Shown here: piece by piece, positions 5,170 to 30,882 of the stretch
Layout: every line of letters starts with the position of its first letter
Numbering within the stretch: position 1 is the stretch's first letter
Virus record (IMG/VR): IMGVR_UViG_3300044858_003749
Reading direction: 5' to 3' (one strand)
Length of the DNA: 30,882 nt
From: a virus
Taxonomy: Duplodnaviria > Heunggongvirae > Uroviricota > Caudoviricetes
Translations under genes and position numbers: made by a program
The notes under the pieces: generated by a model
Databases searched by the model: none
What the model was told of the DNA's origin: nothing
The model's input: the letters and a program-made list of their open reading frames with translations, nothing else

Positions 5170-5621
5170 GTCGCTGTGAATATTATGATTGTGGGTGGTG
5201 TTACGCCCCTGATAATGTCATGAGTAATAACACCAATGGAGCCTGTTATCGGCCACAGGAATGCCCTCAGATGACTAAAGAACATCAAAAACCAGATTGT
5301 CCCAAACCACAGATAATCAAAGAGGACGTATTACCTGAAAAAACTCCTGATCTTTTTTTGGAAGATTATAGAATCAAAAAGGTTGTTAAGAACGGTGAAA
5401 CTAAATTCTATCCCCAGAGAATGGGATTCTTTAGATGGCGAAATTTTCTGCCTTTGGGCTATTCTTTTTTTCGCACTTATCATGAGGCTAACAAATACCT
5501 TTGTTATCATATCATGCAAGAGTCTGAACGTTCTGTGGAATACTTTAATCCCGATTTTAGCTTTATTAAAAAAGAACCCAATCCTCAACCAAAAATCCCT
5601 GATGGAAGAGCTAAATTCTAA
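5166..5621 (+). CDS. hypothetical protein with Cys-rich N-terminus
   Basis: CEYYDCGWCY..CYRPQEC; ORF track. Confidence 0.6.
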   Translation: MSRCEYYDCGWCYAPDNVMSNNTNGACYRPQECPQMTKEHQKPDCPKPQIIKEDVLPEKTPDLFLEDYRIKKVVKNGETKFYPQRMGFFRWRNFLPLGYSFFRTYHEANKYLCYHIMQESERSVEYFNPDFSFIKKEPNPQPKIPDGRAKF

Positions 5622-6189
5622 CACCCCACTGGAAACCTTAGAACGTCTGGCTAATGATGAGGATTGGTATGTTCGCAGTCGGGTTGCACAAAATCCCAAC
5701 ATACCACCAGAAACCTTAGATCGTCTGGCTAATGATGATTATATTGATGTTCGTCGTCGGGTTGCAGAAAATCCCAACACACTACCAGAAACCTTAGATC
5801 GTCTGGCTAACGATGTTTATCGGTGGGTTCGTGAGAATGTTGCAGAAAATCCCAACACATCTCCAGAAACATTAAAACGTCTGGCTAATGATAAGAGTTA
5901 TTATGTTCGTTCTGGGGTTGCAAGAAATCCCAACACACCAACAGAAACCTTAGAAAGTCTGGCGTATGATGAGTCTTGGGTTGTTCGTGTGAATGTTGCA
6001 AATAATCCCAACACATCAACAGAAACATTAGAACGTCTGGCTAATGATGAGGATTATTGGGTTCGTGTGAATGTTGCATGTAATCCTATCATCCCACAAT
6101 ACATCAAAGATTATCTTAAAATTAAGGAGTTTCTGAAATCATATAATATAAAGCTTAAAACAATTTTAGTAAAAAGTATTAAATATTAA
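5602..6189 (+). CDS. LRV/HEAT-like repeat protein A (6 x 26-aa repeats plus C-cap)
   Basis: NPNTPPETLERLANDxxxxVRxxVAx units at 78-bp period (e.g. 5692 and 5770); C-cap PQYIKDYLKIKEFL; ATG 5602 preferred over 5383. Confidence 0.85.
   Translation: MEELNSNTPLETLERLANDEDWYVRSRVAQNPNIPPETLDRLANDDYIDVRRRVAENPNTLPETLDRLANDVYRWVRENVAENPNTSPETLKRLANDKSYYVRSGVARNPNTPTETLESLAYDESWVVRVNVANNPNTSTETLERLANDEDYWVRVNVACNPIIPQYIKDYLKIKEFLKSYNIKLKTILVKSIKY
6179..6185 (+). promoter_or_regulatory. putative T4-type late promoter (TTAAATA)
   Basis: TAAATA core about 20 nt upstream of ORF 6207. Confidence 0.45.
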
Positions 6190-6206
6190 TAATAACAATT
6201 TTCAAG

Positions 6207-6419
6207 ATGAAATCATTCATTCAATTTTTAGCAGAAGCAAAAAAGCGACAAGAAATTCTTAAAAAAGTTAAGAAGAGCGTTAAGAAGGATAGAACTCCAG
6301 ATATCGTTAGCATTGATATTGGTTCAAAACCTAATTCACCAGAACGGCAAGCTGAGATTGAATATATGATGAAGCATCACGGAGTTAGAGCACTCAAGCA
6401 ACAGTTAAAACAACGATAA
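6207..6419 (+). CDS. small basic protein, candidate capsid internal protein
   Basis: N-terminus MKSFIQFLAE-A resembles the T4 internal-protein capsid targeting sequence (MKTYQEFIAE) and the gp21 cleavage motif L/I-x-E. Confidence 0.6.
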   Translation: MKSFIQFLAEAKKRQEILKKVKKSVKKDRTPDIVSIDIGSKPNSPERQAEIEYMMKHHGVRALKQQLKQR

Positions 6420-6434
6420 TTTAAATTTTTTATT

Positions 6435-7028: not shown

Positions 7029-7032
7029 TATT

Positions 7033-7713: not shown

Positions 7714-7724
7714 AAACATCAATA

Positions 7725-7779
7725 GACACCTATCAACTGTCCACTGACAACCCGCTGATCACCGTCTCCGTGTTATCGT
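7725..7779 (+). promoter_or_regulatory. early promoter with upstream box
   Basis: GACA-N9-TGTCCAC (7725-7744); TGt-TATCGT 7771-7779. Confidence 0.55.
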
Positions 7780-7800
7780 AATTATAGTTTCGTAAAAAAC

Positions 7801-9255
7801 ATGATTCTTAAAACTTCTGAAAAAGCCAACCGCAACTATCTCGCAAAGATTATTCGCATTGATAATCTTCGTAAACATCCTAATGCAGATCGGATGCAAA
7901 TTACAACCATTGATGGTAATAATGTAATCACGGGTCTAGATGCCAGCGAAGGTATGCTATATGTGTATTTTCCGCTTGAGTGTGCTATTAACAAAGAATA
8001 TCTTTCCTTTAGCAATTCTTTTGAGGATAAGACTCTTAACTTAGATACCGAAGTAAAAGGTTATTTCCATTCAACCGGCCGGGTAAGAGCAACAAGGCTT
8101 CGTTCGGAAAAATCTGAAGGTTACATTGTTCCTGTTCACAATATTACAGAATGGATTCTGTCTTGTTCGGGAGAATCCGTTGAGATTACAGAAGCTGATA
8201 TCAATAAGGAATTTGATTTGATCTGTGATCTTGAGATCTGCCGTAAGTATATTGTTAAGTACGTCCGTGAGCAATCACAACAAAAGAATCAAACGAAAAA
8301 ATCAAAAGTTAGTCGTCTTGTGGATGAACAATTCCACTTCCACATTGACACTCCCCAACTGAAGAAGTTTATTGGAGATGTTAATCCCGAAGCTTATATC
8401 TCTATTACAAGAAAGCTTCATGGTACTTCTGCTGTTATCAGTAAGATTCTATGTGTCAAGACGCTAAATTGGTTTGAGCGACTACTGAAGACTCTTGGTG
8501 TCAACATTGTTGATACTCATTATGATCTAGTTTATAGCAGCCGAAAGGTTGTTAAGAACGGTTTTATGGATGTCGAACTATTTTTACGAATTCTTTCTTT
8601 ACCAGGGAATAATATTCCTGAAACATATGAAAATGTTGTTAATTTAATTGAAGATTTTAAGAAATACGGCATCAAATTGCAGCCAGAAGTGGTTCAAAAC
8701 CATTTTTACATTACCGAGGTGTGGGGTGATTGTGCCAAGAAGATTGAACCTTATCTTAAGAACGGTATCTCTCTTTATGGTGAGATTGTAGGTTATCAAA
8801 AAGATGGTGCCGAAATTCAGAAAGGTTATGATTACAAGTGTAAACCGAACACCTTTGAATTCTACGCATATCGTGCCACCTACACTTCTGTTGACGGTGA
8901 TGTTTATGAAATGTCTCCAAGAGAGCTAAAGACCTATTGTGACCGTTATGGGATCAAGACTGTTCCTGAGGTTTATTATGGTAAGGCCAAGGATCTTTAT
9001 GATCTTCCAACCGATAATCATTGGCACGAAAATTTCCTACAGAAACTTTGCGATGAACATCTAGAGAAAGATTGTGATCTATGCGATAACAAGGTTCCTG
9101 ACGAGGGCATTTGTCTCCGTGTTGATAAGCCCTTGGATATTGAAATTTACAAACTCAAGAGCTTCGCTTTTCTACAAATGGAAACCAAGGCTAATGATAA
9201 GGGTATTGTGGATATAGAAACCATGGAATCCGAGGAGGTATCGGAAAATGAATGA
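7801..9255 (+). CDS. ATP-dependent RNA ligase, Rnl2/DRB0094-like family
   Basis: N-terminal RKHPNADRMQ segment; nucleotidyltransferase motifs I (RKLHGTS), III (LYGEIVG), IIIa (FEFYAY), IV (DEGICLR), V (YKLKS). Confidence 0.85.
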   Translation: MILKTSEKANRNYLAKIIRIDNLRKHPNADRMQITTIDGNNVITGLDASEGMLYVYFPLECAINKEYLSFSNSFEDKTLNLDTEVKGYFHSTGRVRATRLRSEKSEGYIVPVHNITEWILSCSGESVEITEADINKEFDLICDLEICRKYIVKYVREQSQQKNQTKKSKVSRLVDEQFHFHIDTPQLKKFIGDVNPEAYISITRKLHGTSAVISKILCVKTLNWFERLLKTLGVNIVDTHYDLVYSSRKVVKNGFMDVELFLRILSLPGNNIPETYENVVNLIEDFKKYGIKLQPEVVQNHFYITEVWGDCAKKIEPYLKNGISLYGEIVGYQKDGAEIQKGYDYKCKPNTFEFYAYRATYTSVDGDVYEMSPRELKTYCDRYGIKTVPEVYYGKAKDLYDLPTDNHWHENFLQKLCDEHLEKDCDLCDNKVPDEGICLRVDKPLDIEIYKLKSFAFLQMETKANDKGIVDIETMESEEVSENE

Positions 9256-13773: not shown

Positions 13774-14565
13774 ATGCTTGCTAATAATCTATTATGTAAT
13801 CTCGGTCGTCTGGGTAATCAGATGTTTCAATATGCCTCGCTCAGAGGATTAGCAGCTAAGCATGATTATGAATACTGCTTACCACCAAAACAATTTCTTG
13901 GAACATTGGACCCTAATTGTGCAGTCAGTGATTGCACAATTTTTGACTGTTTTGAGCTACCAGAAGCACCAAGAATGATTCTTCAGGCTCAGACTTTAGA
14001 GGAATCTTGTTTTGAGTTAGACAAATATCTTTGGAATTCTTGCCCGAACAATGTAACCCTTTTGGGTTATTTTCAAACAGAAAAATATTTTAAACACATA
14101 GAACAGGACATTAGAGATGCTTTTACTTTTAAGCCTTATATTACTACTCCTTGTCGTAATTATTACCTGAATAATTTTTCAACGGATACAATATCCTTAC
14201 ACATAAGAAGAGGTGATTATTTAAAATACACTCACCATCCAGTATTAGATTTGGATTATTATTATAGGGCTCTTAAAGAATTTCCAGATCTTCCTGTTTT
14301 AGTCTTTTCTGATGATCCTGAGTGGTGTAAAACCCAAGAACTATTCGCCTCTGATAGATTTAATATTTCACAATCAAACAATACAGCAGTAGATCTTTAT
14401 CTTCAGTCTGTATGTAATTATCACATTATCGCTAATAGTTCCTTCAGTTGGTGGGGTGCGTGGTTAGCGAAGAGTAAAAAAGTTATTGCACCTAAAAATT
14501 GGTTTGGTCCACCATTGACTCATAATACCAAAGACCTATATCTTGAAGATTGGATTTTACTTTAA
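13774..14565 (+). CDS. alpha-1,2-fucosyltransferase-like glycosyltransferase (GT11)
   Basis: GRLGNQMFQYA, HIRRGDY and IIANSSFSWWGAWL motifs. Confidence 0.9.
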   Translation: MLANNLLCNLGRLGNQMFQYASLRGLAAKHDYEYCLPPKQFLGTLDPNCAVSDCTIFDCFELPEAPRMILQAQTLEESCFELDKYLWNSCPNNVTLLGYFQTEKYFKHIEQDIRDAFTFKPYITTPCRNYYLNNFSTDTISLHIRRGDYLKYTHHPVLDLDYYYRALKEFPDLPVLVFSDDPEWCKTQELFASDRFNISQSNNTAVDLYLQSVCNYHIIANSSFSWWGAWLAKSKKVIAPKNWFGPPLTHNTKDLYLEDWILL

Positions 14566-14583
14566 CCGTTACCGAGGAAGCTT

Positions 14584-14931
14584 ATGAATAATTTTGGAGA
14601 ACTATTAGAGAATTGTCTTAAAGAAACCGTAGATTCGGTTCTTTCTAAAAGAGAGGTTCCAGACATTGAATATGTTGAAACCGATAATCTAGGAGAAGTT
14701 GTAGAAAAGCTAGCTATTCTACACGTCCGAATGTGGATGCTGGAGGATCTAATCAACGTATCAACAACCGACGAAGAATTAGCAGATCTAAAACGTAAAA
14801 TTGATATTTGTTTTAAACAAAAACGACCTAAACTGGTTCAGGCAATCAACTTACTGGTGGATAACTCTATCACCAAAAATAAATCATTAAGAGAAGATTC
14901 TGTTAAAATTTATAAAGGTGTTCAAGAATGA
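14584..14931 (+). CDS. helical hypothetical protein (possibly DUF4254-like)
   Basis: DNLGEVVEKLAILHVRMWMLED pattern; family guess from memory. Confidence 0.6.
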   Translation: MNNFGELLENCLKETVDSVLSKREVPDIEYVETDNLGEVVEKLAILHVRMWMLEDLINVSTTDEELADLKRKIDICFKQKRPKLVQAINLLVDNSITKNKSLREDSVKIYKGVQE

Positions 14932-15758
14932 GATATATTGTAGCTGGTCAATCTGACGCCAAAGGTGTTATTGGTGATGATTCCGCTGATTTGAATGTTT
15001 ATTATGAGCTAGGTTGGGAAGTAACTCTCACAACTGTTATTGCAAAGACTCTTTTAAAAGAGGGCTCTCTATTTAAAACTGATACGATTGTAACGGCAAA
15101 GGACAGGGCCTTTTTCTACAGTAGTTTGTTTGACAATGTTATTGATTGGCATGAATTCAAACAAATAGAAAAAAGTCCAGAAGATGAAATCCATTTTCTC
15201 CCAAAGGACATAGATAACTGGTCTAGTTGGGAGAATAGAATAGATCCAGAGTTAGTCTGTAACTTTGATCTTATTACCGATGTGGAAAAAAGATTCAATG
15301 TTATCAAACCTTTCGGAATCTATTGTATCCGGCTAAGAGATCATTGTTCTTGGAGAAACAGTAATATTGATGTTGCAAGAAGTGTAATTTCAAGATTTAT
15401 CAATGAGTGTGGTATTGATATGTTTGTGATGGGTCAGAATTCTTCATTCTTATCCGAGGAGCTTGGTATTCCTAATATCTCATTACGAGAATATGCTTCT
15501 CTAATGGGTAGTAAACATTGTAAGTTTTGTGTTTCTCCAATGTCCGGTATTATTCAGATTGCTAACTTCTGTGGACACGAGAATCTATACAATTTCATTT
15601 TTGATCATAACAGCGAACGTGGACCCACATTAGAAAACCATCCACTCTTTATGGGTAATAATATCAATCTTAAGAATGTAAAAAACATTATAATTCCTGG
15701 TCAAGAAACAGAGGAACAAATCTTTGAATTATATGAAGAAAACGTTGTACATTCATGA
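14928..15758 (+). CDS. uncharacterised protein in the glycan operon (possible GT-B fold)
   Basis: 276-aa ORF coupled on both sides; no diagnostic motif recognised. Confidence 0.65.
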   Translation: MRYIVAGQSDAKGVIGDDSADLNVYYELGWEVTLTTVIAKTLLKEGSLFKTDTIVTAKDRAFFYSSLFDNVIDWHEFKQIEKSPEDEIHFLPKDIDNWSSWENRIDPELVCNFDLITDVEKRFNVIKPFGIYCIRLRDHCSWRNSNIDVARSVISRFINECGIDMFVMGQNSSFLSEELGIPNISLREYASLMGSKHCKFCVSPMSGIIQIANFCGHENLYNFIFDHNSERGPTLENHPLFMGNNINLKNVKNIIIPGQETEEQIFELYEENVVHS

Positions 15759-16539
15759 TGAGTTATTTGCTCATGCAAGTACAAGCAGTTGGTATAATGA
15801 ATCAGAATTATTTGAATGGTTAAGAGAGTACGATAAAGACTTTCTTGTTTTTACCGATAACTCAATTATGTTATCAGATTCTTATGATAATAAAAGAAAA
15901 TATGCCTGGCTTGTTGAATCACCTGAGATAAATCCAAACATATACGACTACATAAAAGTCAATTCGGATAAGTTCAATCTAGTATTTACTTTTGATAAAG
16001 AGCTACTAGAATTATCATCAAAATTTAAAGTAGCTCCTTTTGGTGGTTGTTGGATTAACGAAGAAGATAGAAAAATTCACAACAAGACCAAGTTGTTATC
16101 GGCTATTTTCTCATCAAAAAGATCAACTTCTGGTCATTCTCTTAGAGCCGAAATAGAAGCTAATATTCCTAATTTAGATTACTTTGGTAATAAAAATAGA
16201 ATTGAAAATAAGATAGAAGGACTAAGAGATTATCACTTCTCTGTTGTAGTAGAAAACACTAAAAGAGATTATTACTTCACTGAGAAGCTAATTGATTGTT
16301 TTGTAACTGGAACCATCCCAATTTATTGGGGTTGCCCTTCAATTGGAAATTTCTTTGATTCCGAAGGTATAATAACTTTTGATACAGTAGACGAGCTTAG
16401 GAATATTATTGGCACCCTAACCGTTGAACAATATGAAGCCAAACTAGAAGCAGTTAAAAACAACTTTGTTATCGCAAAAAATTACTTAATCTGTGACGAT
16501 ATAATTTACAAAATACTAAAAAGACAGGAGAACCTATAA
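15724..16539 (+). CDS. alpha-1,3-fucosyltransferase-like glycosyltransferase (GT10)
   Basis: YHFSVVVENTKRDYYFTEKLIDCFVTGTIPIYWG motif. Confidence 0.85.
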   Translation: MNYMKKTLYIHDELFAHASTSSWYNESELFEWLREYDKDFLVFTDNSIMLSDSYDNKRKYAWLVESPEINPNIYDYIKVNSDKFNLVFTFDKELLELSSKFKVAPFGGCWINEEDRKIHNKTKLLSAIFSSKRSTSGHSLRAEIEANIPNLDYFGNKNRIENKIEGLRDYHFSVVVENTKRDYYFTEKLIDCFVTGTIPIYWGCPSIGNFFDSEGIITFDTVDELRNIIGTLTVEQYEAKLEAVKNNFVIAKNYLICDDIIYKILKRQENL

Positions 16540-16540
16540 A

Positions 16541-17152
16541 ATGTTATTAAATTTTAGAGACTTAAAAACCAAGTATAATATGAATATTACTGGTATTATT
16601 CATATTGGTGGTCATTATGGAGAGGAGATACCAGAATACATTTCCAATGGTATTAATGATATTCTTGTGTTTGAACCACTATCGGAGAACTTCAGAGTCC
16701 TCTCTGAGAATGTAAAAAATCTGAGTGGTAACATTCATCTGTTTAATGTTGCTCTTGGGAATAGTGCCGGCCGGGCTACAATGTATGTTAGTGATAATGA
16801 GATGCAGAGTAGTTCAATTCTTCTTCCAAAGGTCCATTTAACACACCACCCAAATGTTGGATTCCCTACAACGGAAGAAGTGCAAGTTTGTGTTCTGGAT
16901 TCTTATGATACTAAAGGATACAATTTTATTAACATGGATGTTCAGGGTTATGAGCTAGAGGTTCTAAAGGGTGCAAGAGGAACATTGGCTCACGTTGACT
17001 ATGTTTATTGTGAAGTCAATAGAGCCGAGGTTTATGAGAATAACGCCTACGTTGAAGATCTGGATGACTTTTTATCTCAGTACAATATGGTGAGAGTTGA
17101 AACCGATTGGGCTGGCGAAATTTGGGGCGATGCTCTTTATGTTAGAAACTGA
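16541..17152 (+). CDS. FkbM-family SAM methyltransferase
   Basis: IIHIGGHYGEE, VFEPL, FNVALG, INMDVQGYELEVLKG, YVYCEV. Confidence 0.9.
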   Translation: MLLNFRDLKTKYNMNITGIIHIGGHYGEEIPEYISNGINDILVFEPLSENFRVLSENVKNLSGNIHLFNVALGNSAGRATMYVSDNEMQSSSILLPKVHLTHHPNVGFPTTEEVQVCVLDSYDTKGYNFINMDVQGYELEVLKGARGTLAHVDYVYCEVNRAEVYENNAYVEDLDDFLSQYNMVRVETDWAGEIWGDALYVRN

Positions 17153-17153
17153 A

Positions 17154-17792: not shown

Positions 17793-17794
17793 CT

Positions 17795-18445: not shown

Positions 18446-18456
18446 TCAAGAATAAG

Positions 18457-19098: not shown

Positions 19099-19868
19099 AG
19101 AATGAAACCGTTGGTGCGCTCATGATGGTCAAAGATGAAATTGACATTATTGAGCATAATATCAATTATCTTTCAACCCAAGAATTAGATTTAATCTGTG
19201 TGTATGATAATAATTCTACAGACGGAACCGGAGAAAAATTAAGTTGGTTATCTGATATTCATGACGAACTTCTCGTTCTGAATGATTCGGTTGTCGGTTA
19301 TTACCAGGCCGATAAGATGAACAAATGGGCTAATGAAATATTTCAAGACGATATTGATGTTGTCATTCCTATTGATGCTGATGAGATATGGTATTCTAAA
19401 AATCCAAATTGTACTCTAGGTGGTGCTATTAGAGCAACCGATGCTGATATTTTTGTGGCTAGATCTATGGATTATATCCCCACTCTTCTGGATAATTTTG
19501 GTGAACCTAATTTTATTAAAAGGATGAAGTATAGAAAGAAGGATTCTAATTCCTTTAACGCTGTTGCATTTAATTACAGCCCAGAGTTTTGGTTGGAAAT
19601 GGGAAATCATAATGTTCTTAATCATCCAGGAGACAGAGTTTCCGACGTTATTGGCATCCGACATTATCAATACCGAAGTTTTGATCAATTTAGAAAAAAA
19701 GTTAGTAACGGTAAAAAAGCCTACGATGCGACAAATCTTCCAGAATATATGGGAAGCCATTGGCGTAAATTAGGGGCTATGACTAATGATGAGTTGCGTG
19801 AATATTGGTTTGATTATTGCGTTGACTCGGTTGTAAATGATCCCTTTGTCGCTAAGAATTATGCCTAG
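19095..19868 (+). CDS. GT2-family glycosyltransferase
   Basis: MMVKDEIDII, YDNNSTDGT, PIDADE, RHYQYRS. Confidence 0.85.
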   Translation: MKNETVGALMMVKDEIDIIEHNINYLSTQELDLICVYDNNSTDGTGEKLSWLSDIHDELLVLNDSVVGYYQADKMNKWANEIFQDDIDVVIPIDADEIWYSKNPNCTLGGAIRATDADIFVARSMDYIPTLLDNFGEPNFIKRMKYRKKDSNSFNAVAFNYSPEFWLEMGNHNVLNHPGDRVSDVIGIRHYQYRSFDQFRKKVSNGKKAYDATNLPEYMGSHWRKLGAMTNDELREYWFDYCVDSVVNDPFVAKNYA

Positions 19869-20562
19869 ATTATCTCTAGCTATTCCTACGTGTGGCTATC
19901 ACGGTAAAGGTGATGCTCTATTGGATGATTTATTAAGAACTGTTCAGATACAATCTTTTAAAGATTTTGAGATCGTTATTTCTGATCACAGTGAAGATGA
20001 TAAGATTGAAACAAAAGTGCAAGAGTTTTCAGAACTCTTTGATGTAAAATATCATAGAAATTCTGATAAAAGAGGGAATAGTCCCGCGAATCTTAATAAA
20101 GCAATCTCTTTGTGTACTGGTGAAATCATCAAGATTATGTTTCAAGACGACTTCTTTTATGACGATGAAGCCTTTGAGAAGATTTATTATAATCTAGCTG
20201 GTGACGATTCAAAGTCTTGGTTATTATGTGGAACAAATCACACTCAAGACAATGGGCATAATTTCTGTTGGGATATTTTTCCACGATTTAATGATAATTT
20301 ATTAGACGGTGTGAATACAATTAGTTCGCCTTCCGTTGTCGCATTTAAAAAAGATGTGCTAGTAAGATTTGACGAGGATCTGATCTATCTTATGGATATT
20401 GATTTTTATTATAACATGAGAAGGACTCATGGTGAACCGATTTATTATGACGATATATTAGTCACCAATAGAATCCACCAAGATAGTATCTCTAGCAATA
20501 TTACAAATAGAGAAGAACTTCTTGAAAATGAGTCCATTTATTGTAAGAAAAAATATGATTGA
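19861..20562 (+). CDS. GT2-family glycosyltransferase
   Basis: LSLAIPT, EIVISDHS, NLNKAI, MFQDD; ATG 19861 overlaps the previous stop. Confidence 0.85.
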   Translation: MPRLSLAIPTCGYHGKGDALLDDLLRTVQIQSFKDFEIVISDHSEDDKIETKVQEFSELFDVKYHRNSDKRGNSPANLNKAISLCTGEIIKIMFQDDFFYDDEAFEKIYYNLAGDDSKSWLLCGTNHTQDNGHNFCWDIFPRFNDNLLDGVNTISSPSVVAFKKDVLVRFDEDLIYLMDIDFYYNMRRTHGEPIYYDDILVTNRIHQDSISSNITNREELLENESIYCKKKYD

Positions 20563-21139
20563 TTTTATCGTACCAAGTCTTGGTCGGGAAACTCTTCCAA
20601 ATTCCACCAACTCTTTACTTAATCAAACAAATCCAAATTGGCGATGTTATGTTGGTTTTGATGGTCTGGATGAAAACCAAATTTCTTCTGATCTTCTTGT
20701 TGAAGATTCCAGAATTCAATACTTATATCTAAAAGAAAAATTGGGAACTTCTGAGTTTCATGGTAATGCTGGTAGAGTTCGCAACAGAATAATGGAATCT
20801 ATTGAGAATCCTTCCGAATGGACTGGTTTTCTGGATGATGACGATGCTCTTTCCCAGTATTACGTTGAGATTCTAAATAACGAATTAGAAAAAGAAGCCT
20901 GTGATTGTTATGTTTTTAGAATGAATCATGGTGGAAATATCATTCCGCCTTTTGATATGAATGTTCTCCAACAGAATTTTGTTGGTATTTCTTTTTGTGT
21001 TAGAACTAAATTCTTAAAAAGCCACAATATCGGTTTCGTAAATAACAATGCAGAAGATTTTCTTTTTCTACAAGAGATTCATAAAAATGGTGGCAAAATA
21101 AAAATTCTTCCTGTTGTTGGTTATTTTGTTAGAGTATAA
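20555..21139 (+). CDS. GT2-like glycosyltransferase
   Basis: FIVPSLGR, VGFDG, AGRVRN, GFLDDDD; ATG 20555. Confidence 0.75.
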   Translation: MIDFIVPSLGRETLPNSTNSLLNQTNPNWRCYVGFDGLDENQISSDLLVEDSRIQYLYLKEKLGTSEFHGNAGRVRNRIMESIENPSEWTGFLDDDDALSQYYVEILNNELEKEACDCYVFRMNHGGNIIPPFDMNVLQQNFVGISFCVRTKFLKSHNIGFVNNNAEDFLFLQEIHKNGGKIKILPVVGYFVRV

Positions 21140-21927
21140 TGGATAGAAATAAAGCATCTTATAAATTACAAGGATTCGGTCCTGTATATTATATCAATTT
21201 GGACGATAAAGAAGACCGAAAGGTTTTCATGGAGCAACAATTTGAACATTGGGATATTAAAAATTATGAACGAATTTCTGCTTTTGATGGAAGAAATAGT
21301 GATCTAAGTGAACACATTATCGGTAAGTATCCTGAAGGAATAACGACTCCCGAGCTAGGATGTACTTTATCACATTTGAAGGCTATAAAGCATTGGTATG
21401 ACACGTCTGATACTCCTTATGCGATCATTTGTGAGGATGATTGTCTGATTGATAATGCAAAGCATTGGAGCTTTACCTGGCAGGAATTCATGTCTAGAGT
21501 TCCTTATTGCTGGGATTGTCTACAATTAGCGATCATATCAACGGGGAATATCTCAGTCAATATCCACACGAGATTTGTTAACAATTTCTCCACTGCGATA
21601 TACTGTATTAATCGTAGATACGCAGAGAAGTTATTGTCATTTCATTGTAAAGGTAATAAATTTAAATTGGATCAAAATATCAAGCCAAGAGCGGTTGCCG
21701 ACGATTTGATCTATAATGGTGGCCTGACCTTCTCATCACCAATATTTTTGTATGAGTTACGATTAGGAAGTTCAATACATGGTGAGCATTTGGATTTATT
21801 TCATAAGAAATCTTATGAAGGTCTGAGCAATTTTTGGTTTAATCAAGGAAAAGATATGTCTTTGGAACAAATAACTTTCTTTGATCCTTATTTCAGTAGA
21901 ATTACAAACCCTGAACCCGTAGAGTGA
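21139..21927 (+). CDS. GT25-family glycosyltransferase
   Basis: YYINLDDKEDRK, ISAFDGR, ELGCTLSHLKAI, ICEDD. Confidence 0.85.
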   Translation: MDRNKASYKLQGFGPVYYINLDDKEDRKVFMEQQFEHWDIKNYERISAFDGRNSDLSEHIIGKYPEGITTPELGCTLSHLKAIKHWYDTSDTPYAIICEDDCLIDNAKHWSFTWQEFMSRVPYCWDCLQLAIISTGNISVNIHTRFVNNFSTAIYCINRRYAEKLLSFHCKGNKFKLDQNIKPRAVADDLIYNGGLTFSSPIFLYELRLGSSIHGEHLDLFHKKSYEGLSNFWFNQGKDMSLEQITFFDPYFSRITNPEPVE

Positions 21928-24757: not shown

Positions 24758-24807
24758 TTTCAGCTCTTAATATTGGGAATCTATTGTTTTGGAATTGAAT
24801 AATTATT

Positions 24808-25368
24808 ATGATTAATTACGATCTAGCAACAAGTCCCAACACATCGCCAGAATCCTTAGAACGTCTGGCTAACGATAAGGATTATATGGTTCGTCGTGGT
24901 GTTGTATTAAATCCCAATATACCACCAGAAACCTTAGAAAGTTTGGCGAATGATAATAGTTATTATGTTCGTGGCTGGGTTGCAAGAAATCCCAATACAC
25001 CACCAGAAACCTTAGAGCGTTTGGCTAATGATGAGGATTGGCGTGTTCGTCGTAGGGTTGCAAATAATCCAAACACCCCACCAGAAACGTTAGAACGTCT
25101 GGCTCATGATGAGGATTGGCGTGTTCGTTATGGGGTTGTAGGGAATCCTAATACAACAACAGAAATCTTAGAACGTCTGGCTGATGATGAGGATTTAAAT
25201 GTTCGTTATTATGTTGCAAGAAATCCCAACACACCACCAGAAACCTTAGCTCGTCTGGCTAATGATGAGGATTGGTATGTTCGTGAATGTGTAGTAAGAA
25301 ATCCTAATACACCACAATACATTAAAGATTATCTTAAAATCAAAAAGTTTCTGAATTGTTATGAGTAA
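24808..25368 (+). CDS. LRV/HEAT-like repeat protein B (6 repeats plus caps)
   Basis: MINYDLA N-cap, 26-aa units, NPNTPQYIKDYLKIKKFLNCYE C-cap. Confidence 0.9.
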   Translation: MINYDLATSPNTSPESLERLANDKDYMVRRGVVLNPNIPPETLESLANDNSYYVRGWVARNPNTPPETLERLANDEDWRVRRRVANNPNTPPETLERLAHDEDWRVRYGVVGNPNTTTEILERLADDEDLNVRYYVARNPNTPPETLARLANDEDWYVRECVVRNPNTPQYIKDYLKIKKFLNCYE

Positions 25369-25624
25369 TTTTGATCTTGCAAAAAATCCCAACACACCAC
25401 CAGAAACCTTAGAACATCTGGCTAATGATAAGGATTGGCTTGTTCGTTGTAGGGTTGCGCGAAATCTTAACACAACAACAGAAACCTTAGAACGTCTGGC
25501 TAATGATGAGGATTGGTATGTTCGTTATGAGGTTGCAAAAAATCCCAACACCCCACAATACATTCTAACTTATTTTAAAATCAAAAAGTTTTTAACACAC
25601 TATAACTGTTTTAATCATGAATGA
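25361..25624 (+). CDS. LRV/HEAT-like repeat protein C (2 repeats plus caps)
   Basis: MSNFDLA N-cap; 8-nt ATGAGTAA overlap with B. Confidence 0.85.
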   Translation: MSNFDLAKNPNTPPETLEHLANDKDWLVRCRVARNLNTTTETLERLANDEDWYVRYEVAKNPNTPQYILTYFKIKKFLTHYNCFNHE

Positions 25625-25856
25625 ATTCACAATTTACTCTAAACCTGATTGCCCATACTGTGTAAAAATTAAGCATATTATGGAGTTAAAGAAGTTTCCT
25701 CATAAAATTTATACCTTAGGTGTTGATTTTTCAAAAGAAGAATTTTACGATAAATTTGGAGAAGGGTCCACGTTTCCACAGGTTATTCATGAGAACATTA
25801 CTCTTGGTGGATGTGTGGATACGGTAAAATATCTAAAACAAAAAGAATTAATTTGA
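25617..25856 (+). CDS. nrdC: glutaredoxin
   Basis: CPYC active site, TFPQV, LGGC. Confidence 0.92.
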   Translation: MNEFTIYSKPDCPYCVKIKHIMELKKFPHKIYTLGVDFSKEEFYDKFGEGSTFPQVIHENITLGGCVDTVKYLKQKELI

Positions 25857-26609: not shown

Positions 26610-26631
26610 ACTACACATTGAAGAATAAGAT

Positions 26632-27470: not shown

Positions 27471-27661
27471 TGCAAGGGTTTGAATCTGCAAAAGTACAAG
27501 GAAAAATAAACAGAGACGAACTGAATAATATTATCCGTAAGTATAAAAAGGCTAAAAAATACATGAGATCCGGCGTCTTTGCTATTAAGACAATGGACGG
27601 AACCGAGGAATATATTTCCTCTCTTATGAATGAATCAAATGATCCCTCGCTTGTGAACTAA
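27470..27661 (+). CDS. small hypothetical protein
   Basis: ATG 27470 with TAATG overlaps on both sides. Confidence 0.65.
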   Translation: MQGFESAKVQGKINRDELNNIIRKYKKAKKYMRSGVFAIKTMDGTEEYISSLMNESNDPSLVN

Positions 27662-27987
27662 TGGGTAAGCATTATCTACTGAATCTCTATGGTTGCCAAT
27701 TTCATTCCTTGAATGATTTGAATTTTATTACTCAACTATTAAAGGATGCCGCCATCTTATGCGAGGCGACTATTCTTAATGTTGCCACACATCAATTTGA
27801 TCCATATGGGGTTACGGTAGTTTTAATGCTCGCAGAATCACACATAAGCATTCATACATGGCCCGATAAAGGAACCGCCGCATGTGATGTTTATACTTGT
27901 TCACAAACAGATCCTAAGATTGGTTGTGATTTTATTATAGAGAAGTTAAAACCTTCTAATTACGAACTGACTTTCATTCAGAGGTGA
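27661..27987 (+). CDS. speD: S-adenosylmethionine decarboxylase proenzyme
   Basis: GKHYLLNLYGC, HQFDPYGVT, LAESHISIHTWP (E-S self-cleavage site), DVYTC. Confidence 0.95.
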   Translation: MGKHYLLNLYGCQFHSLNDLNFITQLLKDAAILCEATILNVATHQFDPYGVTVVLMLAESHISIHTWPDKGTAACDVYTCSQTDPKIGCDFIIEKLKPSNYELTFIQR

Positions 27988-28043: not shown

Positions 28044-28069
28044 GGTAGAAAGCTAAGAGATTAGCTTCA

Positions 28070-28120
28070 TCCGTTGACTGGAATTCTCCAGTGGAAGTAG
28101 TCTTATGACGAAGCAACGCG
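28070..28120 (+). ncRNA. glutamine-I riboswitch (glnA RNA motif)
   Basis: P1 CGTTG/CAACG, P2 CTGGA-ATTC-TCCAG, junction TGGAAGTA, P3 GTC-TTAT-GAC, GAAG, 3' CAACGCG; matches the glnA aptamer architecture. Confidence 0.85.
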
Positions 28121-28148
28121 AAATTCCACTTTCAATTAGGAGAAAACC

Positions 28149-28250
28149 ATGAAACCAACTTTCGTTCATATTATCAAAAATAAAATTCGTAAGGAAGCTC
28201 TTATTAAAAATAGTCAATACGAAATGGCCAAGAAATCACAAATTTGTTGA
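28149..28250 (+). CDS. 33-aa basic peptide downstream of the glutamine riboswitch (MKPTFVHIIKNKIRKEALIKNSQYEMAKKSQIC)
   Basis: AGGAGA SD 28138-28143, ATG 28149, TGA 28248-28250; absent from the ORF track. Confidence 0.7.
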   Translation: MKPTFVHIIKNKIRKEALIKNSQYEMAKKSQIC

Positions 28251-28324
28251 TTATATTAGTGGTTTATTTTTTGATTTGCATGAGAATTTCTCAATCAGCC
28301 CTAAATTAAAGTTTTTGAATCGTT

Positions 28325-28579
28325 ATGAGTAATTATGATCTAGCAGAAAATCACAACACACCACCAGAAACCTTAGAACGGCTGGCTAATGGTGGTAATG
28401 CTAATCTTCGTTGGCTTGTTGCATTTAATCCCAACACACCACCAGAAGCCTTAGAACGTCTGGCGAATGATGAGGATTCAGAAATTCGTTATGAGGTTGC
28501 AAATAATATTAACACACCACAATACATCAAAGATTATCTAAAAATCAAGGAGTTTCTGAATCGTTATGAGCAATTATGA
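28325..28579 (+). CDS. LRV/HEAT-like repeat protein D (2 repeats plus caps)
   Basis: MSNYDLA N-cap; PQYIKDYLKIKEFLNRYE C-cap. Confidence 0.85.
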   Translation: MSNYDLAENHNTPPETLERLANGGNANLRWLVAFNPNTPPEALERLANDEDSEIRYEVANNINTPQYIKDYLKIKEFLNRYEQL

Positions 28580-28892
28580 TCTAGCAAGAAATCCCAACAC
28601 ACCACCAGAAACATTAGCGCGGCTAGCTACTGATAAGGATTATAACGTTCGTCGTGAGGTTGCAAGAAATCCCAACACACCAATAGAAATCTTAGAACGT
28701 CTGGCTAATGATGAGCATCTGCATGTTCGTTGTTGGGTTGCATTGAATCCCAACACATCGACAGAAATCTTAGAACGTCTTGCTAATGATAACGATTTTT
28801 GGGTTCGTAGCAGTGTTGAATTAAATCCCAACACACCACAATACATTAAAACTTATTTCAAAATTAAAAGAATATTACGTTGTTATGAATAA
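28566..28892 (+). CDS. LRV/HEAT-like repeat protein E (3 repeats plus caps)
   Basis: MSNYDLA N-cap; PQYIKTYFKIKRILRCYE C-cap. Confidence 0.85.
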   Translation: MSNYDLARNPNTPPETLARLATDKDYNVRREVARNPNTPIEILERLANDEHLHVRCWVALNPNTSTEILERLANDNDFWVRSSVELNPNTPQYIKTYFKIKRILRCYE

Positions 28893-29127
28893 GAAAAAAA
28901 CATTATTACTTATAGATAGCTTACAGAATTTATTAGATGTATTAAGAGAAGAGCTAACAGAAAATGATATTACTCCAGCAGATAATAAGATATCCATAAA
29001 TGATCTTTTATCACGAGATATTTCTAAAGAAATAGAATATGCTGAAGAAGGAGTTGATGGCCCGGATATATTATTGAATAGTGAAGAAGAAAGAAAATTT
29101 TACGAAAGATTTAACTTAGGAGAGTAA
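28885..29127 (+). CDS. small acidic hypothetical protein upstream of thyX
   Basis: 8-nt ATGAATAA overlap with E. Confidence 0.65.
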   Translation: MNKKKTLLLIDSLQNLLDVLREELTENDITPADNKISINDLLSRDISKEIEYAEEGVDGPDILLNSEEERKFYERFNLGE

Positions 29128-29130
29128 CTT

Positions 29131-29814
29131 ATGAGACCCGATGTAAAACTTATAGCCATAACTCAGGGGGCAGGAGATCTTGTCAATAAAAATGCACAAG
29201 AGGTTATTTCTTATGTCGCTAGAGTTAGTAATCCAAATAATCAGCTAAATTTTGATACAGCTAGCGGACTCATTAGATACTGTATTAAAAATAAACATGT
29301 AAGCATTTTTGAACATTCTTATATGACGCTGGAGATCAATACAACCAGAGCGATTGCGGCTCAAATTTTGCGCCATAGATCCTTTTGTTATCAAGAATGG
29401 TCCCAAAGATATTCTGATGTAAATTCTTTAACAGAAACGATAGTGGTTCCAGAACTTCGTAGGCAAGACACTAAGAACCGACAAAATTCTATTGACGATC
29501 TTGATAAGGAAGTTAAGCAGTCTTTTGAAGATGAAATTAAAGATTATTTCAAACAAGGACAAGAACTTTATAATTCGCTTCTTGATAATGAAGTCGCAAA
29601 GGAATCAGCACGTTTTATTTTGCCGTTAGCAACACCAACAAGAATTTATATGACGGGCAATGTTCGTTCTTGGATGACATATATCGCTCTTAGAGAGAAA
29701 AATGGTACACAGAAAGAGCACCAAGACATTGCAAAAGAATGTAAGCTCATCTTTAAAGAGCAGTTTCCAGATTGTTATGAGGCTTTAGGTGGGGGCGAAG
29801 AATGGACTATCTAG
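29131..29814 (+). CDS. thyX: FAD-dependent thymidylate synthase
   Basis: ARVSN, SIFEH, QILRHRSFCYQEWSQRY (RHRx7S motif), ESARFILP, GNVRSW, QKEH. Confidence 0.95.
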   Translation: MRPDVKLIAITQGAGDLVNKNAQEVISYVARVSNPNNQLNFDTASGLIRYCIKNKHVSIFEHSYMTLEINTTRAIAAQILRHRSFCYQEWSQRYSDVNSLTETIVVPELRRQDTKNRQNSIDDLDKEVKQSFEDEIKDYFKQGQELYNSLLDNEVAKESARFILPLATPTRIYMTGNVRSWMTYIALREKNGTQKEHQDIAKECKLIFKEQFPDCYEALGGGEEWTI

Positions 29815-30882
29815 ATTACTTACAACAATACCGCGAAAAATATCATTTAGATGATATCTTCAATCACAATAATAATGCTGATGTAGAACAAGTAGAGAAG
29901 TATATTGGGGAATTATGCGGTGTTTCTTATGTTTTACTTGAGTTGTTTTGTGGCGCGCGTTCGGAAGAACATTACAAAGGTGGACGGACGTTCCCAAGCA
30001 ATATTCATAGATTTGTTATGAAAAATAGTGTATTAGAAAATACTGGTAAAGAACCGAAAAACATTGATTATCTTACCAGAATGCTGGTGACAACTCTAGG
30101 TAATCCCGATTCTGAGATTTTAGATTCTATAGCAAGAGAAAATAATCCAGTAATAAACAAAATTATTTCACGCCACCAAAACACATCAAGCGACACTTTG
30201 ATGTATCTTGCGTCTTCCAACATTTATGCTTCAAGTATTATTTGTCATAGTAATATAACCTCTGATGTTTTATTGGAGATAACAAAAGTCTTATTATCTG
30301 ATCTAAGTAAAAAAATTTTTTGGGTTCAATATCCAGAATGTGATGATTGGGACTTTGTTCAGAAACTTCCTTATGTAAGTGGAAAGCCGAGTGGAAGGAT
30401 ATTAGATTTTTTGGAATATATTGTGGGCTCTTCTAATTTTAATGAGGATACGATGAAGTTGTTTTTATCGGTAGACGATGAAACAATGAAAACGTTAGTG
30501 TGGGATCAAATCTTTTATAGTATGGGTAGAAATCCTTATATTTCACCTCAAATAATGGATATATTGTGTGGGGATCAATTCGTTACTTTAAAGTATAATG
30601 GCGTTCTTGAAAATCCTAATGCGCCTAAACATATTTTAGAAAAGTATTCAACACATAACAAAATGTTTTATCGTGAGCGTGTTGCATATAATACTAACAC
30701 ACTAACAAAAACATTAGAACGTCTGGCTAACGATAATCATCCTGATGTTCGTTGTGGAGTTGCATGTAATCTCAACACATCACCAGAAACATTAGAACTT
30801 CTGGCGAATGATGATAATCGTTGGGTTCGTCTTAGGGTTGCAAAAAATCCAAACACACCCACAGAAATACTAGATCGTTTAG
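29802..30882 (+). CDS. LRV/HEAT-like repeat protein F, over 360 aa, truncated at the window end
   Basis: Translated by hand: ATG 29802 with no stop to the end; degenerate repeats, then canonical units (..TLERLANDNHPDVRCGVAC-NLNTSPETLELLANDDNRWVRLRVAK-NPNTPTEILDRL); missing from the ORF track. Confidence 0.85.
   Translation, partial: MDYLDYLQQYREKYHLDDIFNHNNNADVEQVEKYIGELCGVSYVLLELFCGARSEEHYKGGRTFPSNIHRFVMKNSVLENTGKEPKNIDYLTRMLVTTLGNPDSEILDSIARENNPVINKIISRHQNTSSDTLMYLASSNIYASSIICHSNITSDVLLEITKVLLSDLSKKIFWVQYPECDDWDFVQKLPYVSGKPSGRILDFLEYIVGSSNFNEDTMKLFLSVDDETMKTLVWDQIFYSMGRNPYISPQIMDILCGDQFVTLKYNGVLENPNAPKHILEKYSTHNKMFYRERVAYNTNTLTKTLERLANDNHPDVRCGVACNLNTSPETLELLANDDNRWVRLRVAKNPNTPTEILDRL

What the first reader, a model, noticed from the sequence alone, without database searches (positions are those of the whole stretch)
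5602..30882. Dispersed, recently expanded family of six LRV/HEAT-like repeat genes inserted among conserved phage genes
Seen: six paralogs (A 5602, B 24808, C 25361, D 28325, E 28566, F 29802) at four loci. All use one 78-bp/26-aa unit. A-E share a PQYIKxYxKIKxFL-like C-cap, and B-E share an M(S/I)N(Y/F)DLA N-cap. Repeat number varies (6, 6, 2, 2, 3, 3 or more). Scaffold DNA is near-identical between loci 20 kb apart, including many synonymous positions (aatcccaacacaccaccagaaaccttagaacgtctggctaatgat). They sit beside grx, the glutamine-riboswitch peptide and thyX. Known: LRV/HEAT-like alpha-solenoids are protein-binding scaffolds. Inference: this is a phage-encoded, recombination-shuffled binder repertoire, for example anti-defence or host-takeover effectors. 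I do not know of a description of such a system in cyanophages.
Basis: partly seen in the sequence, partly recalled or inferred. Interest (0 to 1): 0.82.

Follow-up and report, generated by a model that had tools for sequence, protein, structure and literature searches.

The report
Hypervariable LRV repeat genes in cyanophage
An uncultured freshwater cyanophage carries dozens of small genes built from one 26-residue helical repeat whose framework is kept uniform within each phage genome while seven surface positions vary strongly, which looks like a natural library of binding proteins whose targets are unknown.

Summary
The six genes exist at the stated coordinates, and all pass Pfam LRV (PF01816). 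The window is part of a 100-kb viral contig with at least 23 such genes and 74 in-register 26-residue units.

Framework codons are almost monomorphic, even at synonymous sites and on rare codons. Positions 16-19, 22, 23 and 26 are near saturation and enriched in Trp, Cys and Tyr.

A collinear relative, G001, has 24 genes with the same variable positions. Its fixed framework codons, framework residues and caps differ from those here. Six of ten loci are shared, with different gene and repeat numbers. This indicates homogenisation or turnover within each genome.

In a strain whose thyX is 99.1% identical, the neighbouring LRV genes are only 59% identical at variable codons. The change is mosaic, so recombination is still reshaping them.

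The AlphaFold model (pLDDT 95.7) is an alpha-solenoid. It resembles 1LRV and the engineered alphaRep binders, whose randomised positions are 18, 19, 22, 23, 26 and 30.

A diversity-generating retroelement (DGR) lies upstream on the contig but targets a different gene.

Gene F is an older conserved gene with grafted LRV units.

A binding role is inferred. Targets and expression are untested.

This scan had already reported the same family from another window of this genome (e1-1844905).

The parts
5602..6189 (+). 195 aa, six 26-residue units, a C-cap run on by 13 residues, no canonical N-cap. Its start overlaps the end of the upstream 151-aa ORF.
   Evidence: ORF and translation. Pfam LRV E 9.4e-44, 6 stretches. 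Units in register. This locus holds no LRV gene in relative G001.
24808..25368 (+). LRV02 (B). 186 aa, N-cap MINYDLA, six units, C-cap ending CYE.
   Evidence: (E 1.3e-50). phmmer hit to PDB 1LRV, E 7.3e-17. The syntenic locus in G001 holds two LRV genes of 4 and 5 units.
25361..25624 (+). LRV03 (C). 87 aa, two units. Its start ATGAGTAA overlaps the stop of LRV02 by 8 nt, and its stop overlaps the glutaredoxin start (25617) by 8 nt.
   Evidence: E 4.3e-14; junction sequences; glutaredoxin PF00462.
28325..28579 (+). LRV04 (D). 84 aa, two units, the first divergent. The C-cap reads through to YEQL because the usual TAA is CAA, giving a 14-nt overlap with LRV05.
   Evidence: (E 5e-11). The leader upstream of the ATG resembles the 3' end of a C-cap although no LRV gene precedes it.
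28566..28892 (+). LRV05 (E). 108 aa, three units. Its stop overlaps the start of the next 80-aa gene by 8 nt.
   Evidence: (E 5.8e-26). AlphaFold model pLDDT 95.7, eight helices. Positional orthologs in two other strains keep the cap but differ at most variable residues.
29802..30882 (+). LRV06 (F), cut by the window end (422 aa in full). It has a conserved ~290-residue helical N-domain, three canonical LRV units and a conserved ~55-residue tail with no QYI-type cap. Its start overlaps the end of thyX.
   Evidence: E 1e-11. Homologs: 3 of 10 carry the LRV units, and 7 are 289-310 aa without them. All-helical model, pLDDT 83.5.
28070..28122 (+). Glutamine riboswitch aptamer, a neighbour and not part of the family. 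It marks the conserved context upstream of LRV04.
   Evidence: Rfam RF01739, 43.8 bits against a gathering score of 35.

Best explanation
The six genes belong to a family of at least 23 genes on this contig. They encode small cytoplasmic alpha-solenoid proteins of the LRV type.

Each protein has an N-cap helix, 1-6 copies of a rigid 26-residue two-helix unit, and a C-cap helix. Seven positions per unit are hypervariable: 16-17 in the loop before helix B, and 18, 19, 22, 23 and 26 on one face of helix B. In the stacked solenoid these positions form one continuous variegated surface. I read that surface as a binding surface, so each gene would give a binder of different specificity.

The framework is kept uniform at the DNA level within a genome. 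The cause is ectopic recombination or gene conversion and gene turnover between the near-identical framework stretches of about 45 nt. T4-like phages have very active homologous recombination (established knowledge). The same process moves whole units and gene segments between loci, while selection keeps the contact positions diverse.

The genes are spliced into translationally coupled strings by overlapping stop and start codons, next to nucleotide-metabolism genes (grx, thyX). They are therefore probably made with the non-structural genes during infection.

Shown: the gene family, the fold class, the hypervariable pattern, the genome-specific homogenisation and the strain-level mosaic change. 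Inferred: that the surface binds proteins, that the targets are host or defence proteins, and when the genes are expressed.
For: **Family and fold**
- Pfam LRV hits for all six genes.
- 61 LRV matches and 23 genes on the contig.
- 74 units with no indels.
- AlphaFold model with pLDDT 95.7 and alternating 7- and 9-residue helices.
- 1LRV match by sequence, E 7e-17, and by fold, rmsd 1.7 A over 73 residues.

**Hypervariable surface**
- Entropy is 2.0-3.6 bits at positions 16-19, 22, 23 and 26. It is below 0.9 bits at N1, N3, T4, E7, L9, L12-D15, V20, R21, V24 and A25, and 1.3-1.9 bits at P2 and at positions 5, 6, 8, 10 and 11.
- The same columns vary in relative G001 and in more than 50 other viral contigs.
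- Variable positions are enriched in W (7.7x), C (5.2x), Y (3.1x) and R (1.9x), and depleted in A, T, M, I, P and V, in both phages.
- The closest folds include alphaRep binders. Their randomised positions are 18, 19, 22, 23, 26 and 30, and they form the crystallographic interfaces (PMC3754942).

**Diversifying pattern**
- Within the genome, variable-site pN is 0.56, against framework pS 0.20 and pN 0.07.

**Homogenisation**
- Framework codons are fixed on rare codons. L12 is CTG in 55 of 71 units against 7% genome-wide. R21 is CGT in 71 of 72 against 15%. P2 is CCC in 47 of 57 against 11%.
- G001 has other fixed states (K7, Q11, T14; CCA, CTA, CTA, GCG, GTA) and other caps.
- Framework pS is 0.20 and 0.25 within the two genomes and 0.56 between them. 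Core genes between them show 0.61-0.80.
- Six of ten loci are syntenic.

**Ongoing recombination**
- Strain contig L045 is 99.1% identical in thyX and orf80. In LRV04/05 it is 59% identical at variable codons and 88% at framework codons, with a boundary inside repeat 3 of LRV05.
- A third strain carries yet another set of variable residues under the same cap.
- Nine unit pairs from different genes share at least 5 of 7 variable residues, against 2.8 (sd 1.6) in shuffles.

**Coupling**
- Junction sequences show overlapping stops and starts.
Against: - No binding partner is known or predicted, and no expression data could be obtained.
- PADLOC has no match, and PHROGs gives only a family of unknown function.
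- High diversity at surface positions could partly be relaxed constraint. The dN/dS figures pool paralogous units, are near saturation, and are not a site-model test on orthologs.
- In the unit-sharing test the largest shuffle (12 pairs) exceeds the observed 9, so that result is moderate evidence only.
- Independent insertion into the same hyperplastic hot spots in both lineages could mimic concerted evolution.
- I could not compute solvent exposure from the model. The 'one face' claim rests on secondary structure and helical periodicity.
Confidence: 0.6

Rival explanations
1. Recombination-driven selfish or near-neutral gene family. The repeats spread and homogenise because their 45-nt framework is a good substrate for the phage's own recombination system. 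The variable columns are simply unconstrained surface positions, and the proteins have no specific binding function.
For: Gene and repeat numbers differ freely between relatives and some loci are empty. The cultured relative B3 has no LRV gene at all. The leader upstream of cluster-first genes looks like a cap remnant, as expected for cassette-like insertion.
Against: All 23 frames are intact, with 74 units and no indel or stop. The framework pN/pS is about 0.38. The variable columns have a strongly non-random composition, 3-8x enriched in W, C and Y and using GC-rich codons in a 36% GC genome. That composition is reproduced in a second lineage. The same columns vary in many unrelated viral lineages.
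Confidence: 0.12
2. The variable columns are written by a diversity-generating retroelement (DGR), that is, targeted mutagenesis by a reverse transcriptase.
For: The contig does carry a DGR about 2 kb upstream of the window. It has a reverse transcriptase with the IGNLTSQ and YMDD motifs and a template/variable repeat pair in which 14 of 18 mismatches fall on template adenines.
Against: That DGR's variable repeat is the 3' end of a different 161-aa gene (contig 2434-2561). BLAST of that repeat finds no LRV-like copy. LRV variable codons show no adenine-specific pattern, and their consensus codons are GAG, GAT, TGG, TAT, TAT, GGG and AGA. 74 dispersed targets would be unlike any known DGR. Only 41% of the genome is in hand, so a second template cannot be fully excluded.
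Confidence: 0.03
3. Modular nucleic-acid readers or DNA mimics. Each unit would read a base or mimic a DNA phosphate pattern, as in TALE, PUF or HEAT-like DNA glycosylases, or as in acidic anti-restriction mimics.
For: The layout of one hypervariable patch per near-identical repeat resembles TALE repeats. Some metagenomic homologs are auto-annotated as AlkC, a HEAT-like-repeat glycosylase. Many members are acidic.
Against: Charge is not uniform: pI runs from 4.2 to 9.4 and net charge from -13 to +3. The variable residues are dominated by W, Y, C, D and E, not K, R, N or Q. Proteins of 1-3 units are too short to read a useful sequence. The AlkC label is an automatic name given to a repeat match.
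Confidence: 0.08
4. Virion-associated or injected proteins, such as decoration, adaptor or internal head proteins. The variable face would serve attachment or early host attack from inside the particle.
For: Other phage solenoid families noted in this scan were read that way (unchecked notes). The proteins are small and numerous.
Against: None of the genes lies in the large-protein (presumed structural) block at about contig 42-66 kb. They are coupled to glutaredoxin, thyX and similar genes. Only two TATAAATA late-type motifs occur on the contig, and neither lies within 150 nt upstream of an LRV gene. No leader or signal sequence is apparent in the N-caps.
Confidence: 0.08

Closest known systems
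Leucine-rich repeat variant (LRV) proteins: Pfam PF01816 and PF25591, with the Azotobacter vinelandii protein (PDB 1LRV) as prototype
   Same: The units match the whole 26-position Pfam model without indels, and all six genes are over the cut-off. The match to 1LRV has phmmer E 7e-17 and Foldseek rmsd 1.7 A with 41% identity over 73 residues. The fold is the same solenoid of alternating short helices.
   Different: These are phage-encoded, very small (59-205 aa), capped stand-alone arrays present in dozens of copies per genome. The QYI-type C-cap and the exact framework are absent from one genome of each of 185,579 cellular species. 1LRV has an N-terminal Fe-S domain (recalled from memory), which is absent here. 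No function is known for the prototype either.
alphaRep artificial binders and the natural thermostable HEAT-like repeats they were modelled on (PMC3754942; PDB 3LTJ, 4JW2)
   Same: They are top structural neighbours, with TM by query 0.63-0.68. Both are two-helix repeats with caps. The variable positions 18, 19, 22, 23 and 26 lie in the same register on the second helix, and in alphaRep complexes these positions form the target interface. Both are rich in aromatics at those positions.
   Different: alphaRep units are longer, with a sixth variable position at 30, whereas these units are 26 residues. Sequence identity is only about 22-25%. alphaRep is an engineered library, whereas this is a natural phage gene family whose binding has not been shown.
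Repeat families under concerted evolution with hypervariable contact residues, such as TALE repeats and expanded ankyrin-repeat families of large DNA viruses (from general knowledge)
   Same: The repeats are near-identical at the DNA level apart from a few hypervariable codons. Repeat number varies and recombination acts between repeats and paralogs.
   Different: The fold and the host system differ. These genes are many separate small genes at more than ten loci, not one long array. The ligand class is unknown.
DGR variable proteins of phages (Bordetella phage BPP-1 Mtd type)
   Same: Both are phage-encoded proteins with targeted hypervariability on a fixed scaffold. A true DGR sits on the same contig.
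   Different: The LRV genes have no template repeat, no adenine bias and no C-type lectin fold. Their diversity is germline and arises by recombination and mutation.

Membership tests
Pfam LRV (PF01816) | Whole-protein score above the curated gathering cut-off (21.6 bits) | tested here: met
   Scores are 42.7-166.7 bits for the six window genes. There are 61 matches on the contig, 58 of them over the cut-off.
Pfam LRV (PF01816) | Repeat unit aligned end to end with the 26-position model, in tandem without spacers | tested here: met
   Best stretches cover model positions 1-26. 74 units lie in a strict 26-residue register with no indels.
Pfam LRV (PF01816) | Right-handed solenoid of alternating short helices, as in PDB 1LRV | tested here: met
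   The AlphaFold model has pLDDT 95.7 with alternating helices of 7 and 9 residues. 1LRV matches at rmsd 1.7 A and 41% identity. Handedness and the alpha versus 3-10 character of the helices were not measured.
alphaRep / Mth187-type HEAT-like repeats | Repeat length and consensus of the alphaRep family (longer unit, variable positions 18, 19, 22, 23, 26 and 30) | tested here: not met
   The unit here is 26 residues with no position 30. Identity is 22-25%. This is a functional and structural analogy only, not membership.
DGR target (variable protein) | A template repeat elsewhere that differs from the variable region almost only at adenines, with a nearby reverse transcriptase | tested here: not met
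   The RT and template/variable repeat pair on the contig belong to another gene. There is no LRV-like template, and the LRV variable codons have no adenine pattern. Only 41% of the genome could be searched.
Known anti-phage defence or counter-defence protein families | Profile match to a described family | tested here: not met
   PADLOC gave no match. PHROGs gave only phrog_20647 (unknown function), with E 3e-13 at best. No dedicated anti-defence library was available.
Kyanoviridae (T4-like cyanophage) genome context | Closest cultured relatives and typical cyanophage accessory genes | tested here: met
   The RNA ligase is 49% identical to Synechococcus phages B3 and B23 (Kyanoviridae, 245 kb). 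thyX, speD, grx and a glutamine riboswitch are present. The stretch is held in lake-water metagenomes.

The most novel reading that the evidence does not exclude
The conserved ~45-nt framework is not only a protein scaffold. It is also a built-in recombination handle that lets T4-like phages shuffle 26-residue binding cassettes between dozens of loci. On this reading a phage population carries a combinatorial, fast-renewing repertoire of intracellular binders, a germline analogue of variable lymphocyte receptors or antigenic-variation systems, aimed at host defence or takeover targets. This would be a widespread, undescribed counter-defence strategy of large aquatic phages, because the same variable columns with lineage-specific frameworks occur on more than 50 viral contigs.
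Probability: 0.25. Interest if true: 0.88.

Novelty: new variant of a known kind. Interest (0 to 1): 0.72.

Why it matters
If these proteins are binders, one phage devotes about 9% of the sequenced 100 kb to a diversifying recognition repertoire (23 genes, about 9 kb). That is unusual for a virus of bacteria. It would open a route to unknown host targets and defence systems in freshwater picocyanobacteria.

The family is also a clean natural case of concerted evolution of a scaffold with diversification of its contact residues. It mirrors the design logic of engineered repeat binders, so it is a ready source of stable natural scaffolds.

Full-text searches of the held library found no description of LRV multigene families in phages. 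Metagenomic data show they are common in viruses.

Tried and rejected
- **DGR as the source of LRV variation.** A real DGR was found, but it serves another gene.
- **Nucleotide search of the phage collection.** Megablast with 25 kb gave no match. A tblastn search with LRV02 hit only Moorella phage MTATph1, at 33% identity.
- **Promoter and terminator scan around the loci.** The result was not above shuffles (32 sites against 26.5, sd 5.1), so it says nothing on timing. Only two TATAAATA late-type motifs occur on the contig, and neither is near an LRV gene.
- **Sequencing runs.** 20 DNA holders from 14 studies were listed, mostly lake or freshwater metagenomes, and no RNA holder.
- **Laying contigs of four runs.** Short-read contigs break or collapse inside every LRV array. 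Summed depth rises several-fold to more than ten-fold there and many chimeric joints appear. No copy-number or haplotype conclusion is possible. The unique DNA between arrays showed no differences in the listed pieces from three runs and about 1.6% differences in the fourth.
- **Cellular origin.** The cap motif and the exact framework pattern were not found in one genome per species of GTDB. This does not exclude more distant cellular LRV relatives, which do exist.
- **Complex prediction.** Not run, because no candidate partner exists.
- **Literature.** Five full-text searches found no prior description. Subscription journals are not covered.


Full report
**1. What is in the window**

- A: 5602-6189
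- B: 24808-25368
- C: 25361-25624
- D: 28325-28579
- E: 28566-28892
- F: from 29802, running off the window end. Its stop is at window coordinate 31070.

Tandem Repeats Finder reports 78-bp arrays at all four loci. All six proteins pass the curated cut-off of Pfam LRV (PF01816), with E-values from 1e-11 to 1e-50. LRV_2 and HEAT give weaker, overlapping hits.

Nine copies with at most three mismatches occur at loci A, B/C and D/E, none in F, where none is expected by chance.

The neighbours are as stated:
- glutaredoxin, 25617-25856 (PF00462)
- a glutamine riboswitch aptamer, 28070-28122 (RF01739)
- thyX, 29131-29814
- speD, 27661-27987

The genes are joined to each other and to their neighbours by overlapping stop and start codons:
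- TATGAGTAAT encodes both ...YE-stop and MSN... at the B/C junction.
- At D/E the TAA has become CAA, so D reads on to YEQL-stop.
- C overlaps the grx start.
- E overlaps the next gene's start.
- thyX overlaps F.

**2. The family is much larger than six**

The window is bases 4574-35455 of a 99,981-bp IMG/VR viral contig, estimated 41% complete. A Pfam LRV scan of the contig gives 61 repeat matches, all on the + strand.

Reading the frames gives at least 23 LRV genes in ten clusters. The last gene runs off the contig end. A unit profile recovers 74 complete units in strict 26-residue register with no insertion or deletion.

Most genes share the plan of N-cap (MSNYDLA-like), 1-6 units, and C-cap (NPNTPQYIKxYLKIKxFLNxYE).

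The nearest cultured phages are Synechococcus phages B3 and B23 (Kyanoviridae, about 245 kb), with 49% identity in the RNA ligase. B3 has no LRV match at all. Among 50,697 phage records, only Moorella phage MTATph1 gives a weak tblastn hit.

The stretch is held by 20 listed sequencing runs from 14 studies, mostly labelled lake-water or freshwater metagenomes.

**3. Anatomy of the unit**

Column statistics over the 74 units show a fixed framework, NPNT-PE-L-RLAND----VR--VA-. Entropy is below 0.9 bits at N1, N3, T4, E7, L9, L12-D15, V20, R21, V24 and A25. It is 1.3-1.9 bits at P2 and at positions 5, 6, 8, 10 and 11. Seven columns are hypervariable, with 2.0-3.6 bits and up to 16 different residues: 16, 17, 18, 19, 22, 23 and 26.

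The framework is uniform at the DNA level too, and it sits on codons the genome rarely uses:

| Position | Codon | Units with that codon | Genome-wide use of that codon |
|---|---|---|---|
| L12 | CTG | 55 of 71 Leu | 7% of Leu codons |
| R21 | CGT | 71 of 72 | 15% |
| P2 | CCC | 47 of 57 | 11% |
| L9 | TTA | 71 of 73 | 28% |

So codon bias does not explain the uniformity. Common descent or homogenisation does.

Pooled Nei-Gojobori counts give framework pS 0.20 and pN 0.07. Variable columns have pN 0.56, close to saturation.

The variable columns have a marked composition. Trp is 7.7-fold enriched, Cys 5.2-fold, Tyr 3.1-fold, Arg 1.9-fold and Asp/Glu 1.7-1.8-fold over the phage's proteome. Ala, Thr, Met, Ile, Pro and Val are depleted 4-11-fold. 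The figures are almost the same in a second phage. This is not what neutral drift in a 36% GC genome would give.

**4. Fold**

I modelled LRV05 with an alignment of 16 three-unit members. The model is a very confident solenoid, pLDDT 95.7 and pTM 0.86, of alternating 7- and 9-residue helices plus a long C-cap helix.

In unit numbering, helix A spans positions 6-12 and helix B spans 18-26. Positions 18, 19, 22, 23 and 26 follow the i, i+1, i+4, i+5, i+8 pattern of one helix face. Positions 16-17 lie in the loop leading into helix B. This exposure argument rests on periodicity. I could not compute it from coordinates.

1LRV is the only solved structure found by sequence (E 7.3e-17). It matches the model at rmsd 1.7 A with 41% identity.

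The other top structural neighbours are the engineered alphaRep binders. Their randomised positions are 18, 19, 22, 23, 26 and 30. These were copied from the natural variability of HEAT-like repeats and form the interface in crystal complexes (PMC3754942). The agreement in register is the best available argument that the variable face here is a binding face.

**5. Comparison with a relative: homogenisation within genomes**

A cap-plus-unit search of IMG/VR found contig IMGVR_UViG_3300042561_002100 (G001, 179.5 kb, 83% complete). It is collinear with this contig, and its core proteins are mostly 40-85% identical. It carries 24 LRV genes with 98 units.

The hypervariable columns are the same. 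The framework has different fixed states:

| Feature | This phage | G001 |
|---|---|---|
| Position 7 | E | K |
| Position 11 | R | Q |
| Position 14 | N | T |
| P2 codon | CCC | CCA |
| L9 codon | TTA | CTA |
| L12 codon | CTG | CTA |
| A13 codon | GCT | GCG |
| V24 codon | GTT | GTA |

The caps also differ. G001 has MNKLEQA... at the N-terminus and ...HYIKKYLKIQEHLAKL at the C-terminus.

Framework pS is 0.20 within this phage, 0.25 within G001 and 0.56 between them. Core genes between the two phages show pS 0.61-0.80.

Six of the ten loci that can be anchored by flanking orthologs hold LRV genes in both phages, but with different gene and unit numbers. For example, B plus C (6 and 2 units) corresponds to two genes of 4 and 5 units, and D plus E (2 and 3 units) corresponds to one gene of 6 units. 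G001 has several loci of its own.

The most economical reading is a family that was already dispersed in the common ancestor. It has since been homogenised and turned over separately in each lineage. Repeated independent insertion into the same hyperplastic hot spots is the alternative, and I cannot exclude it.

**6. Change at strain level**

A 3.5-kb metagenome contig (L045) is syntenic with D, E, orf80, thyX and F. Its thyX and orf80 are each 99.1% identical in DNA to this phage. Within D and E, however, variable codons are 59% identical, framework codons 88% and caps 86%.

The difference is mosaic. From the third unit of E onward the two sequences are again nearly identical. That is a recombination tract, not scattered point mutation.

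A third contig (L046) keeps E's private cap (YFKIKRILRCYE). Only the two residues at positions 22-23 of its third unit match E; every other variable residue in its three units differs.

Within the contig, nine pairs of units from different genes share at least 5 of the 7 variable residues, against 2.8 (sd 1.6, maximum 12) in column shuffles. For example, LRV02 unit 5 matches LRV17 unit 2, and LRV02 unit 2 matches LRV14 unit 2, which lie 40-50 kb apart. This supports occasional transfer of whole units.

**7. Gene F**

F has a conserved ~290-residue helical N-domain. Seven of its ten database homologs, including those of G001 and L045, are 289-310 aa and end just after an ENPNTP motif. Three homologs, including this one, continue with three canonical LRV units and a conserved 55-residue tail without the QYI cap. 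The variable columns of those units differ between the three. The model is all-helical with pLDDT 83.5.

F is thus an older gene onto which LRV units were grafted, not a sixth copy of the small-gene plan.

**8. A DGR nearby, and why it is not the cause**

A scan for reverse transcriptases found one at contig 125-1156, about 3.4 kb upstream of the window. It has the IGNLTSQ and YMDD motifs.

A template repeat, cut by the contig start, lies at contig 1-128. It pairs with a variable repeat at 2434-2561, the 3' end of a 161-aa gene. 14 of 18 mismatches fall on template adenines. This is a canonical DGR with its own target.

No LRV-like template exists on the contig. The LRV variable codons show no adenine signature.

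**9. Distribution**

The protein database holds at least 138 close relatives from metagenomes. Many have the same caps, and they sit on contigs of up to 244 kb.

IMG/VR holds 165 confirmed stretches, and the best 78 loci come from more than 50 contigs. Each lineage has its own framework consensus but the same variable columns. The QYI/HYI-type cap is confined to the clade of this phage and G001.

The nearest ESM Atlas clusters are small LRV proteins whose labelled members are mostly viral. The cap motif and the exact framework are absent from one genome of each of 185,579 prokaryotic species.

**10. Function**

Nothing links the family to a described system. PADLOC gives no match, and PHROGs gives only a family of unknown function. 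Charge is heterogeneous, with pI from 4.2 to 9.4. This argues against a uniform DNA-mimic or nucleic-acid-binding role.

The genes lie outside the block of large, presumably structural genes (about contig 42-66 kb) and are coupled to nucleotide-metabolism genes.

My best explanation is a repertoire of small intracellular binders whose specificity is set by the variable face and renewed by recombination. My confidence is about 0.6 overall. It is much higher for the structural and evolutionary description, and about even for protein binding aimed at host or defence targets.

**11. Novelty**

LRV repeats, hypervariable repeat binders and concerted evolution are each known. A phage multigene family that combines them was not found in five full-text literature searches.

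This scan had already reported the same family from another window of the same genome (note e1-1844905). The present work adds:
- the full count on the contig
- the comparison with G001 showing genome-specific homogenisation
- the locus-by-locus synteny
- the strain-level mosaic
- the composition test
- the exclusion of the neighbouring DGR
- the separate nature of F

Noticed in passing
Outside the window: G000:C1:1-2561 (the window starts at contig base 4574); locus L032: A canonical diversity-generating retroelement. The template repeat is at contig 1-128 (cut by the contig start). The reverse transcriptase is at 125-1156 and has the IGNLTSQ and YMDD motifs. The 161-aa target gene is at 2079-2561, with its variable repeat at 2434-2561. 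14 of 18 mismatches fall on template adenines.
   Followed up: yes
The small ORF behind it was not examined.
   Followed up: partly
window 24795-24810 and 28310-28327; contig 77250-77266: The first gene of an LRV cluster still has an 11-16-nt leader resembling the 3' end of a C-cap (…TTTTTGAATCGTT-ATGAGTAAT), although no LRV gene lies upstream. This is either a remnant of cassette insertion or a conserved translation-initiation context.
   Followed up: partly
variable columns 22 and 23 of the units (for example window 24808-25368): Cysteine is 5-fold enriched at the hypervariable positions in both phages. TGT is among the commonest codons at positions 22-23. This could reflect metal or redox chemistry, or only mutational proximity to TAT, TGG and CGT. 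It is unexplained.
   Followed up: no
window 7801-9255: A 484-aa RNA ligase (phrog_968, E 4e-58). Its nearest relatives outside cyanophages B3 and B23 include Lak megaphages, Desulfovibrio-type phages and, more distantly, many actinobacteriophages.
   Followed up: no
window 13774-21927: A run of glycosyltransferase-like and methyltransferase-like genes (phrog_2644, phrog_2835 twice, phrog_8156). It is conserved at 57-81% identity in relative G001 and is possibly a DNA or surface modification module.
   Followed up: no
contig 67416-67760 (LRV07), outside the window: This LRV gene has no ATG and starts mid-unit at a GTG directly after the upstream gene. It may be a 5'-truncated copy. Its locus is empty in G001.
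   Followed up: no
G001 = IMGVR_UViG_3300042561_002100: IMG/VR labels this 179.5-kb record a provirus. However, it is collinear with a T4-like cyanophage contig over about 90 kb, so the label may be wrong.
   Followed up: no
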